From IMG/VR virus record IMGVR_UViG_3300045051_001056, positions 33,746 to 97,745 of that record: a DNA stretch of 64,000 nt. The stretch is one strand, 5' to 3'. The notes beneath the pieces were generated by a model. That model saw only the letters and a list, made by a program, of their open reading frames with translations. It did not search any database and was not told the origin of the DNA. This document shows, one piece after another, positions 1,115-6,239 of the stretch. Source of the stretch: a virus. Position 1 is the stretch's first letter. Every line of letters starts with the position of its first letter. A program made the translations under genes and the position numbers.

Positions 1115-1675
1115 ATGAAAAAAAATCAATTACCATTATCATGGTATATAGAAAATGATAAAAGTCAATTATTTAAAGATACAGTAATCTCATACCTTAA
1201 TACCAAGTATGGTGGAAATTATGCTGGAACTGATAAATATTATGGAATGACCGGGAAATATCATGTCAGTTCATTAAGTAATGCAGCTTTTCGAGCAAAT
1301 AATTACACACGTCTTACGTTGCAGGATTTTATTGATCTCAGCGCAATCAAAATAAAGGCTGTAAAAGAAAAAAAATATGAATTAACCAGGTCCACCATAT
1401 TAGAAATGGCCTCTCGTAATCCTGCAGTAAAAATGGCTTTAAGAGGTGCATTTCCTGATGCATTCGAACCAGAAGACAAATCTGTAAATATACCACTTGC
1501 ATCCAATATGAAAACTGAGGGGTTCCAAATAATTAGAGATAGTAATCAAGTACGCTTAGCAGAACCTATACAATATGGTGAATATTTCGGAAAGGCACTT
1601 TTTCTTAATACATCATTCAATTGGGAGCTAAGGTTGGGTGAAACACAAAGCATTTTAATACCAACAAAAAAATGA
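1115..1675 (+). CDS. hypothetical phage protein
   Basis: 186-aa ORF, tightly packed with neighbours (ATGA overlap). Confidence 0.7.
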   Translation: MKKNQLPLSWYIENDKSQLFKDTVISYLNTKYGGNYAGTDKYYGMTGKYHVSSLSNAAFRANNYTRLTLQDFIDLSAIKIKAVKEKKYELTRSTILEMASRNPAVKMALRGAFPDAFEPEDKSVNIPLASNMKTEGFQIIRDSNQVRLAEPIQYGEYFGKALFLNTSFNWELRLGETQSILIPTKK

Positions 1676-2136
1676 AAATAATATTATATATTGTAATAAT
1701 TTTCGCAACAATAAGTTGTGCCGAAAAGAAAAATCCAATTTGTTTGGAATTCCAAGGAAAATGTGAATTGCGCAAATTCAAGTGTGAAAGCGAAAAAAAC
1801 AAAACTTCTAGCGGATATTGGGTTATTGCTGGTGGAAGCTATTCTTCTCAAGAGACCACTAAAAAATGGATAACTTTTTATTGTAAAAACAATAACGGGG
1901 AATACTGTAAGTTTGATGTTATGCCTAACAAAATTAGGATCTCTATTAATGATACGATAAGTAGGCCATATGTCATATTTCACACAAAATATGATTTCTA
2001 TAATGATATTTATTTTTGCCTTTACACCGAAGGGTGGAGTCGTGGGCCCACTTCACACACATTCGATGGGCAATATGTCACAATATTTTGCAACAATGAG
2101 GATTTTCCAGAAAGTTTAAACATTGATCAATTATAA
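1672..2136 (+). CDS. putative lipoprotein
   Basis: MK + hydrophobic stretch + ISC lipobox-like motif. Confidence 0.55.
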   Translation: MKIILYIVIIFATISCAEKKNPICLEFQGKCELRKFKCESEKNKTSSGYWVIAGGSYSSQETTKKWITFYCKNNNGEYCKFDVMPNKIRISINDTISRPYVIFHTKYDFYNDIYFCLYTEGWSRGPTSHTFDGQYVTIFCNNEDFPESLNIDQL

Positions 2137-2144
2137 ATAAAAAC

Positions 2145-2513
2145 ATTAACATTCGTTGAGATTGCTAGTAAAATTCGTTTGGACCGGGGTTTGATTCCCC
2201 GCACCTCCACATGCAGGAGTCGGTATTGGACATTTCTTATATACCGTTAGATTTGTATAGGATAATATCGACTCCCCTTTCTACAACGTAATCGCCAATT
2301 ACGACACCTCGGAGGAAGCAGGTGTATTTCGTCTGCTTAAGAAAGATGTGGCACGTCGAGGTTAAATTTTATGGGGGTGATCGAGTTTGACAGCGAAAGA
2401 ATAGGGTAATTGAGAGTGTTAGTAAGCGCAAACGGCAATCAGTTTGAAATTGGTTTTCAGTCATCAAGGATGGCTGCTTAATCACGCCTAGCCCCAGCGA
2501 AATGGGGCTTTTT
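2145..2513 (+). ncRNA. ssrA: circularly permuted (two-piece) tmRNA gene
   Basis: Acceptor piece comes first (T arm CGGGG-TTTGATT-CCCCG, then CACCTCC-A at 2202-2209). Coding piece starts GGGGGTG at 2373 and pairs with it, giving G3.U70. Tag frame 2428-2481 reads ANGNQFEIGFQSSRMAA*. Confidence 0.88.
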
Positions 2514-2519
2514 CTTTTT
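2490..2519 (+). terminator. intrinsic terminator after the tmRNA coding piece
   Basis: AGCCCCA-GCGAAA-TGGGGCT hairpin followed by a U tract. Confidence 0.85.
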
Positions 2520-2681
2520 ATTAACAAAACATTTATAATGGAAGAAGAAGATAACGGATTCCTAGATAATATATCTTCTAATCCTAAGATAGTATGGGCA
2601 ATGTCTATTATATATCTCTTGCTTTTTATTTTATATATATTTATCAGTGTAATTATTTTAAATCTTTAAAAAACAAGCAAA

Positions 2682-2945
2682 ATGAAAAGAATTGAAACGC
2701 CTGCAGGAAACACAGTTTTACAATTTACTGGAGAGTATTACCGTCACAGTAGGCCTCAGAGAACAAAGAACACTCAGGTGACCGAGAATTCCATCTCATT
2801 AGATCAAAAATTGTCAGTAAAAAAATCTTTTGGGGTAGACATGTCTACAAAAACAACAGAAAAGGCGGCTGCCGCTACATTAAAACATCTTACCAACAAG
2901 ACATTCAAAGGGGAAACCATTTGGAGGTCACAACTTGCAAGATAA
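2682..2945 (+). CDS. hypothetical basic protein
   Basis: 87-aa ORF with A-rich leader. Confidence 0.6.
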   Translation: MKRIETPAGNTVLQFTGEYYRHSRPQRTKNTQVTENSISLDQKLSVKKSFGVDMSTKTTEKAAAATLKHLTNKTFKGETIWRSQLAR

Positions 2946-3216
2946 TATGGACTGGCTGTCAATAATCTATTTGATTGGGATTATATTGGCTCCAGCCATG
3001 TTTGCTATTATGGATTCGTTCGAAGAAAAAAACCGAACAAGAATTATTGACGATGAGAATTGGGGATGGGGAGCTATTTTATGCTTCTTTTCCCTATTAT
3101 GGCCATTAGTGATAATGGTATATATTTTTCGTCATTTTTTTAAAATCTTTAGCTATATTTATTGTAAAACAGAATCTATTATTCTTAACCTTAAGAATAA
3201 AAATAAAATTGGCTGA
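2935..3216 (+). CDS. small membrane protein
   Basis: Two hydrophobic helices, LLWPL motif. Confidence 0.6.
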   Translation: MQDNMDWLSIIYLIGIILAPAMFAIMDSFEEKNRTRIIDDENWGWGAILCFFSLLWPLVIMVYIFRHFFKIFSYIYCKTESIILNLKNKNKIG

Positions 3217-3234
3217 TAATTTAAAATAAATCTT

Positions 3235-3474
3235 ATGAACACAATATTACTTATTTTTTTATTAGGAATAATATTCATTCCATTAATTACATTGATCCTG
3301 ATCAAAGACGAAGATGTTGAAAACTGGGAGCCTGGGGATTGGGTAGCATTTTTCATTGTATTCGGCTTGGGATGGATTGCGATTGCAATATATACCCTGA
3401 TATGGGCGCTTTTCGTTATTTTATTAAAATTGTCAGATAAATTAATTTTAATCTTTAAAAAAACAAACAAATGA
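3235..3474 (+). CDS. small membrane protein
   Basis: Two hydrophobic helices; ATGA overlap with next gene. Confidence 0.6.
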   Translation: MNTILLIFLLGIIFIPLITLILIKDEDVENWEPGDWVAFFIVFGLGWIAIAIYTLIWALFVILLKLSDKLILIFKKTNK

Positions 3475-3794
3475 AAGTACTTTTATCAGTAGATGGGTCT
3501 AGGGCAAGCTTTGCCTATATTCGATGGAATCATTCGATTCACCATGTGTCAAATGTTATAAAGACGGATATTGACAATACAATTCCATTGAGTAAAACTA
3601 GTTGTAAAATTGATTTTTTTGATTCGAAAGGAAACGCGCTAGGTCATGTTGAAGGTAGCTCAAAAGTATCTCCAAGAGATTTTTATAACAAAGAACTTGG
3701 TAGAAAATTGACCCTTAAACGTGCCATGAAAGATATAGAAAAGCCGATTAGAACAGCTTTATGGGAAGCGTATCTCAATCGTAAAAGCAGATAA
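3471..3794 (+). CDS. hypothetical phage protein
   Basis: C-terminal SPRDFYNKELGRKLTLKRA resembles a recurrent phage motif (D.F.K..GR..A..RA). Confidence 0.7.
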   Translation: MKVLLSVDGSRASFAYIRWNHSIHHVSNVIKTDIDNTIPLSKTSCKIDFFDSKGNALGHVEGSSKVSPRDFYNKELGRKLTLKRAMKDIEKPIRTALWEAYLNRKSR

Positions 3795-5545: not shown

Positions 5546-5617
5546 TGCGGGGTAGAGCAGTGGTAGCTCGTGAGTTTCATAATCTCAAGGTCATAGGTTC
5601 GAATCCTATTCCCGCTT
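5546..5617 (+). tRNA. tRNA-Met(CAT), initiator-like acceptor stem
   Basis: Cloverleaf TGCGGGG/TCCCGCT, D arm GAGC/GCTC, anticodon loop TTCATAA, T arm ATAGG-TTCGAAT-CCTAT. Confidence 0.85.
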
Positions 5618-5681
5618 CAAAAGAAAATTGAAAATCAGACTATAATATCTGAACAATTATTATTAACTAAAAATTTGTACT

Positions 5682-6239
5682 ATGTTCTACAGATTAGACA
5701 AAAAAGGATTAGAATATGTTAGAATTAAAATGTTTTGGTTTATAATCCTTTTACTATCAGTGATTTTATTTATTGTAATAATCTTAAGTTTTTTTAACAC
5801 TATAGAAGAAAAGATTATTGAACAAAAGGTTATTGTTGTAATGAATCAGCAAAATAAATTTGAGGAATCTAAATTTATTAAAAAAATAAAAGAATTAAAT
5901 TTTCAATTTCCTCACATTGTTTATGCACAATCAATATTAGAAACGGACAGCTTCAGATCTAATATTTTTAAAGAGAATAATAATCTTTTTGGTATGAAAC
6001 AGGCCGTGATTAGAGTAAATCTTGCCAAAGGAGTTCAATATAATCATGCATATTACGATAATTGGACGGATTCCCTGCTTGATTATGCCCTATATTATTC
6101 TACATATTTATCACAATTAAAAACAGAAGACGATTACTTTAACTATCTGTCTCAATTTTATGCAGAAGATAAAGAATATGTGAATAAATTAAAAACATTA
6201 ATCAATAAATTATCATTAAGAGAAATTTTTAACAAATGA
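5682..6239 (+). CDS. glucosaminidase (GH73/FlgJ-like) peptidoglycan hydrolase with N-terminal TM helix
   Basis: AQSILET...NNLFGMK and YAEDKEY motifs; hydrophobic segment at residues 16-38. Confidence 0.8.
   Translation: MFYRLDKKGLEYVRIKMFWFIILLLSVILFIVIILSFFNTIEEKIIEQKVIVVMNQQNKFEESKFIKKIKELNFQFPHIVYAQSILETDSFRSNIFKENNNLFGMKQAVIRVNLAKGVQYNHAYYDNWTDSLLDYALYYSTYLSQLKTEDDYFNYLSQFYAEDKEYVNKLKTLINKLSLREIFNK

What the first reader, a model, noticed from the sequence alone, without database searches (positions are those of the whole stretch)
2145..2513. Phage-encoded circularly permuted (two-piece) tmRNA with its own degradation tag
Seen: the normal 3' half of tmRNA (GGAC-CGGGG-TTTGATT-CCCCG-CACCTCC-A, 2181-2209) lies upstream of the normal 5' half (GGGGGTG-ATCGAGTTTGAC, from 2373). 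GGGGGTG pairs with CACCTCC over 7 bp and includes the G3.U70 alanyl-tRNA synthetase determinant and an A discriminator. The two pieces also pair through AGCGAA/TTCGTT, GGTAATT/GATTGCT and GAGTGTTAGT/ATTAACATTC. A resume context TAAGC|GCA opens the frame ANGNQFEIGFQSSRMAA* (2428-2481), followed by an intrinsic terminator. Known: permuted ssrA genes occur in Alphaproteobacteria and in some Betaproteobacteria and cyanobacteria, and the Bacteroidota ssrA genes I know are one-piece. Inference: this is an independently permuted, very compact tmRNA (little room for the usual pseudoknots) in a crAss-like phage. It may rescue ribosomes stalled by host anti-phage RNases or tRNases, or redirect tagging. 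No smpB is visible in the window, so it would use the host protein.
Basis: partly seen in the sequence, partly recalled or inferred. Interest (0 to 1): 0.92.

Follow-up and report, generated by a model that had tools for sequence, protein, structure and literature searches.

The report
Two-piece tmRNA gene in crAss-like phage
This soil (rhizosphere) crAss-like phage carries a real, very small, back-to-front ("two-piece") gene for tmRNA, the RNA that frees stalled ribosomes. It belongs to a phage family of such genes that public records already label but that no paper I could search describes.

Summary
Rfam's permuted-tmRNA model hits window 2160-2481 at 56.1 bits (cut-off 47).

The genome is a 97.7-kb Crassvirales phage with terminal repeats. 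Its capsid protein is 54-58% identical to Steigviridae. Its DNA occurs in rhizosphere metagenomes. It has no SmpB gene.

The gene is not unique. Motif scans found at least 25 distinct genes of the same compact build. Many lie on crAss-like contigs of about 100 kb. These genes show compensatory changes in the acceptor stem, the T stem and helix P2. Their tag frames are conserved.

RefSeq already labels homologues in cr60_1, cr114_1 and other phages as SsrA. This scan has noted the family before, in at least 57 other genomes.

The alpha, beta and cyano lineage models all fail on it. Its sequence signatures match one-piece Bacteroidota tmRNAs. A separate origin of the permutation, with loss of the pseudoknots, is therefore likely.

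Closer relatives of this phage lack the gene.

Verdict: a sound member of a catalogued but unstudied family. Function (processing, alanylation, tagging) is untested.

The parts
2145..2209 (+). Acceptor piece. 3' strands of helix P2: P2c 2145-2154, P2b 2160-2166, P2a 2174-2179. Then GGAC 2181-2184, T arm 2185-2201 (loop 2190-2196 with U at position 56), 3' acceptor strand 2202-2208 and discriminator A 2209. CCA is not encoded.
   Evidence: RF04321 alignment; unconstrained folds; family comparison
2210..2372 (+). Intervening segment of 163 nt, predicted to be removed by tRNA-end processing. It forms hairpins of its own. In relatives it is 43-163 nt long and not conserved.
2373..2427 (+). 5' part of the coding piece: 5' acceptor strand 2373-2379 (G3 pairs with U70), D-loop 2380-2391, P2a 2392-2397, conserved internal loop 2398-2404, P2b 2405-2411, P2c 2414-2423, and a 4-nt spacer with UAA at -5 to -3 from the resume codon.
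2428..2481 (+). Tag reading frame: resume codon GCA, 17 codons ending ..R-M-A-A, stop TAA at 2479-2481.
   Evidence: ARAGORN -ps80 output; frame conserved in relatives
2490..2519 (+). Intrinsic terminator (7-bp stem, 6-nt loop, T run) that ends the coding piece.

Best explanation
Window 2145-2519 is a functional gene for a circularly permuted, two-piece tmRNA of a compact type found in crAss-like phages.

Inferred mechanism:
1. One transcript is cut by host tRNA-end enzymes. RNase P cuts before G2373. A 3' trimming activity cuts after A2209, and CCA is then added.
2. This yields an acceptor piece of about 65 nt and a coding piece of about 140 nt.
3. The two pieces stay joined by the 7-bp acceptor stem and a three-part helix P2.
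4. Host AlaRS charges the RNA through G3.U70 and A73.
5. Host SmpB and EF-Tu deliver it to stalled ribosomes.
6. Translation resumes at GCA 2428, adds a 17-residue tag ending in Ala-Ala, and stops at TAA.

The phage thereby adds ribosome-rescue capacity, with its own tag, during infection.

Shown: the sequence and fold, membership of a conserved and covarying family, the phage's identity, and the absence of SmpB from the phage genome.
Inferred: processing, charging, tagging and the benefit to the phage.
For: Detection and fold:
- RF04321 scores 56.1 bits, above the cut-off of 47.
- Unconstrained folds give the expected architecture.
- P2 duplex: z about -4.4, with 1 of 3000 shuffles as good.
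- A terminator closes the gene.
- ARAGORN -ps80 calls a permuted tmRNA with the same tag.

Family:
- At least 25 distinct permuted genes have the same build.
- They score 40-69 bits on RF04321.
- ARAGORN at default calls six of them permuted tmRNAs.

Covariation on 13 genes:
- 91.5% of cells are paired, against 47-57% when the partners are slid.
- 8 pairs show changes on both sides.
- The covariation score is 0.258 against 0.068 in shuffles (0 of 500 as high).
- G3.U70 is invariant in 13 of 13.
- Acceptor positions 5-7, T-stem positions 1-2 and P2a positions 4-6 change in a compensatory way.
- All 13 fold into the same three-part P2 from unrelated sequences.
- The D-loop base before N-UUUGAC covaries with T-loop position 56: A with U in 13 sequence types, G with C in 4, and 1 exception.

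Tag frames keep their length class. They start with Gly or Ala then Asn, end in Ala-Ala or Val-Ala, and differ by synonymous changes.

Phage identity: the capsid protein is 54-58% identical to Steigviridae, and portal and TerL match.
Against: - There are no expression data. No RNA run holds the locus, and the DNA pieces in four rhizosphere runs are identical, so they give no variation.
- Closer relatives lack any tmRNA hit. These are three IMG/VR contigs with 86-92% capsid identity and six of the seven named Steigviridae I searched. The gene is therefore dispensable for this kind of phage.
- ARAGORN at default misses this copy and at -ps80 flags it as low-scoring.
- The T loop has U instead of the near-universal C at position 56.
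- No promoter could be assigned. The Bacteroidota -7 motif occurs in the window at chance frequency.
- No pseudoknot-free tmRNA of this type has been shown to work.
Confidence: 0.78

Rival explanations
1. It folds and is charged like a tmRNA, but its role is to compete with the host tmRNA. It would act either as a decoy that dampens host trans-translation, or as a re-tagger whose different tag changes the fate of rescued proteins.
For: - The phage tags differ strongly from the host-type tags found in Bacteroidota genomes.
- No phage SmpB exists, so the RNA must share the host's.
Against: - The tag frame is conserved and ends in the usual Ala-Ala degron type across the family. This fits ordinary tagging for proteolysis.
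- A pure decoy would not need a frame.
Confidence: 0.14
2. It is a recently acquired, decaying or neutral passenger copy with no function in this phage.
For: - It is absent from the closest relatives.
- It lies in a variable region with no nucleotide similarity to relatives.
- Its ARAGORN score is low.
Against: - All defining elements are intact: 7 of 7 acceptor pairs, G3.U70, A73, 5 of 5 T-stem pairs, and an open tag frame with a stop.
- It has the strongest P2 duplex z-score of the 13 genes compared.
- Its own terminator fits exactly.
Confidence: 0.06
3. It is an attachment-site remnant: a fragment of a host tmRNA gene carried by an integrating phage.
For: Phages often integrate into tmRNA genes and carry the 3' end of the gene (general knowledge; PMC11915505). 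The two IMG/VR hits carry whole one-piece tmRNA genes; one lies in a record classed as a provirus.
Against: - Both halves and a tag frame are present, in permuted order, and they pair with each other.
- The same arrangement is conserved in many phages.
- None of the ten flanking ORFs tested matched an integrase family.
- The record has direct terminal repeats and is not classed as a provirus.
Confidence: 0.02

Closest known systems
tmRNA (SsrA) features annotated in RefSeq crAss-like phages, e.g. cr60_1 NC_055891 and cr114_1 NC_055897 (Suoliviridae); also cr52_1, cr125_1, cr115_1
   Same: - Permuted order and compact build.
- Three-part helix P2 with the conserved internal loop.
- Tag frame close to P2.
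- No encoded CCA.
- Host phage belongs to Crassvirales.
   Different: - The acceptor stem differs at positions 5-7.
- The tag starts Ala-Asn rather than Gly-Asn and is longer.
- The coding piece ends in an intrinsic terminator and is not followed by hairpins and tRNA genes.
- The phage is Steigviridae-like and from rhizosphere, not gut.
- Nucleotide similarity is too low for blastn.
One-piece tmRNAs carried by Bacteroidota phages and prophages: cr106_1 NC_055871 (Steigviridae), G010/L041 (crAss-like), and second copies in Bacteroides sp. 224 and Dysgonomonas sp. 216
   Same: Most of them share the tRNA-like-domain signature: the same acceptor stem, the UUUGAC-AG D-loop end, U at T-loop position 56, and no encoded CCA. 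L002 and L003 also have tags starting Ala-Asn.
   Different: They are one-piece genes of 304-386 nt and align to the whole standard model at 74-82 bits. The window's gene is permuted and lacks the pseudoknot region.
Two-piece tmRNAs of Alphaproteobacteria, a betaproteobacterial lineage and cyanobacteria (RF01849, RF01850, RF01851), and the marine phages that carry them (Melnitz, pelagiphages, cyanophages; PMC9004378)
   Same: Permuted gene order and processing into an acceptor piece and a coding piece. Phage carriage of two-piece tmRNA is documented.
   Different: - The lineage models fail: 18-23 bits against cut-offs of 50-84.
- In the 7 alphaproteobacterial genes read, the T loop is reduced, CCA is encoded, and well over twice as many bases lie between the D-loop and the resume codon.
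- 40 sampled alphaproteobacterial genes score 89-163 bits on RF04321, against 40-69 bits for the crAss type.

Membership tests
tmRNA (any form) | tRNA-like domain: 7-bp acceptor stem with G3.U70, discriminator A, 5-bp T stem with 7-nt T loop, no anticodon arm | tested here: met
   The T loop has U at position 56, matched by A in the D-loop.
tmRNA (any form) | Tag reading frame without a start codon. The resume codon is Ala or Gly and follows a UAA-containing context. The tag ends in hydrophobic-Ala-Ala and a stop. | tested here: met
   Frame 2428-2481
tmRNA (any form) | Works with SmpB | tested here: inconclusive
   No SmpB (PF01668) in the 97.7-kb phage genome. Use of the host protein is inferred.
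tmRNA (any form) | Alanylation and trans-translation | not testable with these tools
   Needs biochemistry.
Permuted tmRNA (Rfam RF04321) | Score at or above the gathering cut-off, with the acceptor piece upstream of the coding piece | tested here: met
   56.1 bits against 47, model positions 1-213
alpha, beta or cyano two-piece lineages (RF01849, RF01850, RF01851) | Score at or above each family's gathering cut-off, which covers the lineage-specific helices and pseudoknots | tested here: not met
   20.7 of 50, 23.1 of 84 and 18 of 70 bits, matching the tRNA-like domain only
Standard one-piece tmRNA (RF00023) | Collinear 5' half, pseudoknots, 3' half | tested here: not met
   19.4 bits, 3' end only
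crAss-type compact permuted tmRNA (family defined here and by RefSeq labels) | Bacteroidota-type domain signatures; three-part P2 joining the pieces; conserved loop between P2a and P2b; 36-47 nt from D-loop to resume codon; carried by Crassvirales | tested here: met
tmRNA-derived attP fragment | Only the 3' end of the gene, next to an integrase | tested here: not met
   Both halves and the tag are present. None of the ten flanking ORFs tested matched an integrase family.

The most novel reading that the evidence does not exclude
The crAss-type genes, this one included, are a fourth, independent origin of the two-piece tmRNA. They would have arisen from a Bacteroidota-type one-piece gene inside phages, by permutation and loss of all pseudoknots. 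At about 65 + 140 nt they would be among the smallest tag-encoding tmRNAs. They would show that a tRNA-like domain, one long helix and a frame are enough for trans-translation with a host SmpB. In this soil phage the gene would be a sporadic acquisition.
Probability: 0.5. Interest if true: 0.6.

Novelty: new member of a known kind. Interest (0 to 1): 0.4.

Why it matters
If active, these RNAs are a natural minimal design for trans-translation. They would speak to a long-standing question: what the tmRNA pseudoknots are for. They would also show that abundant Bacteroidota phages invest in ribosome rescue.

This copy extends the family in two ways. It moves it from gut and rumen Suoliviridae to a rhizosphere Steigviridae-like phage. 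It also shows that default ARAGORN annotation misses divergent members.

The value of this single locus is limited, because the family is already labelled in RefSeq and this scan has noted it many times.

Tried and rejected
- Searches (viral contigs; metagenome contigs) were mis-specified by me. The pattern had 7 N instead of 6 between the T loop and CTCCA, so it could not match even the window's own gene. Their blanks say nothing. The single hit was an ordinary tRNA.
- One search failed because 'of' needs a G handle.

Searches that found nothing useful:
- Megablast of 1500-3500 against phages found nothing.
- Relatives of the two upstream ORFs were not found in viral contigs.
- Blastn of the gene against phages found only 29-31-nt T-arm matches in Caulobacter and Ruegeria phages.
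- The exact T-arm/acceptor pattern found two loci that turned out to carry one-piece phage tmRNAs.
- Most genome and metagenome hits to the 5' motif were unrelated coding DNA.

Sequencing runs:
- No RNA holder is listed.
- Contigs of four rhizosphere runs hold identical pieces and give no variation. The extra depth at 2170-2211 comes from other organisms' tmRNA 3' ends.

Other:
- No promoter could be assigned. The TAnnTTTG motif occurs 45 times against about 40 expected, and sigma-70-like sites are at shuffle level.
- The tally includes one unpublished genome (G060). L156 (unpublished G018) was excluded.
- I did not run complex prediction, structure prediction or protein searches, because the finding is an RNA.

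Full report
**What is in the sequence**

Window 2145-2519 lies in a gap of about 400 nt between small + strand ORFs. The upstream ORF ends at 2136.
- GGAC lies at 2181-2184.
- The 5-bp T stem with its 7-nt loop lies at 2185-2201.
- The 3' acceptor strand lies at 2202-2208, and the discriminator A at 2209.
- After 163 nt comes the 5' acceptor strand at 2373-2379. It gives seven pairs, including G3.U70.
- The D-loop follows the 5' acceptor strand.
- Three stretches (2392-2397, 2405-2411, 2414-2423) pair with 2174-2179, 2160-2166 and 2145-2154.
- The resume codon is GCA at 2428, and the frame has 17 codons with TAA at 2479-2481.
- An intrinsic terminator lies at 2490-2509.

**Is it more than chance?**

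- Rfam 15's permuted-tmRNA model RF04321 matches 2160-2481 over its full length. The score is 56.1 bits against a gathering score of 47, with E 3e-8 for the window.
- ViennaRNA recovers the whole proposed architecture without constraints. This holds both for the two pieces cofolded and for the precursor 2137-2515.
- The inter-piece duplex is -19.8 kcal/mol. Shuffles average -9.3 (sd 2.4), and 1 of 3000 is as good. Among 34-mers of the genome, 102 of 17,766 are as good.
- ARAGORN at default finds only a tRNA-Met at 5546.

**The phage**

- The window is bases 33746-97745 of a 97,745-bp IMG/VR record with direct terminal repeats.
- Its capsid, portal and large-terminase proteins match phage head families.
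- The capsid protein is 54-58% identical to Steigviridae crAss-like phages such as cr111_1, cr108_1 and crAss001.
- Identical pieces of the locus occur in contigs of four rhizosphere-metagenome runs.
- The genome has no SmpB.

**Relatives of the gene**

The closest phages lack the gene.
- Three IMG/VR contigs have capsid proteins 86-92% identical.
- None has a tmRNA hit.
- They share no nucleotide similarity with genome positions 28.1-47.6 kb, where the gene lies.

Scans with the 5' domain motif found the family.
- At least 25 distinct permuted genes have intervening segments of 43-163 nt.
- Many lie on IMG/VR contigs of 96-101 kb.
- One lies on a 100.9-kb contig of a MAG labelled Mollicutes. 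That contig encodes a crAss-type capsid (30% identity) and terminase (38% identity).
- Members score 40-69 bits on RF04321.
- ARAGORN at default calls six of them permuted tmRNAs.
- Blastn with a gut member hits 14 GenBank/RefSeq records. RefSeq annotates 'transfer-messenger RNA, SsrA' at that place in cr60_1, cr114_1, cr52_1, cr125_1 and cr115_1.

The same motif also found one-piece tmRNAs carried by phages and prophages. These include a crAss-like 92.9-kb genome and second copies in Bacteroides sp. 224 and Dysgonomonas sp. 216. Among seven named Steigviridae, none has a permuted gene, and one (cr106_1) has an annotated one-piece gene.

**Conservation and covariation**

I aligned 13 permuted genes (A1) and counted pairs in the acceptor stem, T stem and P2a.
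- 91.5% of cells are paired, against 47-57% when the partners are slid.
- Eight pairs have changes on both sides.
- The covariation score is 0.258 against 0.068 in shuffles (0 of 500 as high).
- G3.U70 is invariant.

MAFFT misplaced one gap in P2a. Anchored extraction gives 5-6 of 6 pairs in 12 of 13 genes, with seven different helix sequences.

Each gene on its own folds into the same three-part P2 from unrelated sequence. A loop between P2a and P2b is conserved in sequence.

The D-loop base two positions before UUUGAC goes with T-loop position 56. It is A with U in 13 sequence types, G with C in 4, and there is 1 exception. The A was partly imposed by my motifs, but the U was not. I read this as the tRNA elbow pair, which is an inference.

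The tag frames share several features.
- They start with Gly or Ala, then Asn.
- They end in Ala-Ala or Val-Ala.
- They keep their frame and differ by synonymous changes.

**Origin**

- The alpha, beta and cyano models reach only 20.7, 23.1 and 18 bits on the window's gene. On relatives they reach at most 43 bits.
- Forty sampled alphaproteobacterial genes score 89-163 bits on RF04321. The seven I read have a reduced T loop, an encoded CCA and a much longer stretch before the resume codon.
- The phage genes share features with the hosts' own one-piece tmRNAs (L147-L150):
  - the UUUGAC-AGC junction;
  - GUUUGGAC before the T arm;
  - a single C after the discriminator instead of CCA;
  - in most members, the resume context UAACU followed by GGC AAU;
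  - remnants of the sequence that precedes pseudoknot 1 in the host genes.
- This favours a separate permutation of a Bacteroidota-type gene with loss of the pseudoknots. The case rests on short signatures, not on a tree.

**How it most likely works**

- Host RNase P and 3'-end enzymes release the two pieces, and CCA is added.
- The pieces pair, AlaRS charges the RNA, and host SmpB and EF-Tu bring it to stalled ribosomes.
- The frame then adds a degradation tag.

None of these steps is shown here. There are no RNA data.

**Status**

- I found no paper on tmRNA in crAss-like phages in the library.
- Two-piece tmRNAs in marine phages are published (PMC9004378).
- The 2025 tmRNA database counts 79 phage sequences and 48 'permuted' instances in Bacteroidota assemblies, sorted by best-scoring lineage model (PMC11915505).
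- This scan has already recorded the same family in at least 57 other genomes, with follow-ups that reached the same reading. I read those notes after my own analysis.
- This locus is therefore a sound, divergent member of a catalogued but unstudied family.

Noticed in passing
L145 1071-1142 (cr114_1, NC_055897): A tRNA gene lies inside the intervening segment of that phage's permuted tmRNA gene (RF04321 hit 1003-1321). tRNA processing would therefore cut out the spacer.
   Followed up: no
L053 2147-2274; L097 37-170; L117 1183-1356; L144 67-224 and 1159-1260; L145 547-714: Hatchet ribozymes, RAGATH-9 and RAGATH-20 RNAs lie 0.2-5 kb from the tmRNA genes of gut crAss-like phages.
   Followed up: no
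G009:C26 (MSHB01000026, 100.9 kb; locus L053): A contig binned in a 'Mollicutes bacterium' MAG is a crAss-like phage genome. Its terminase match contains 13 TAG and 3 TAA stops. This suggests TAG recoding and/or an intron.
   Followed up: partly
L147/L151 (Bacteroides sp. 224); L148/L152 (Dysgonomonas sp. 216): Each bacterium has two tmRNA genes: a host-type one (128-130 bits) and a divergent phage-type one-piece copy (78-79 bits). In Bacteroides sp. 224 the phage-type copy lies in a region that IMG/VR calls a provirus.
   Followed up: partly
window 2211-2291: A 26-codon ATG frame starts two bases after the discriminator, inside the intervening segment. There is no evidence that it is a gene.
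   Followed up: no
L117, L105, L115, L101 tag ends: Several gut members end the tag frame with TGA, in some directly followed by TAA. Others use TAA.
   Followed up: no
window 5546-5618 and 5682-6239: A tRNA-Met (CAT) and an endolysin-like ORF lie 3 kb downstream. The ORFs that flank the tmRNA gene match no PHROG family.
   Followed up: partly
L177 358-661 (cr106_1, NC_055871): A Steigviridae phage carries a short (304-nt) one-piece tmRNA next to tRNA-Arg and tRNA-Ile. Its acceptor stem is the same as in the permuted genes of cr60_1 and cr114_1.
   Followed up: partly
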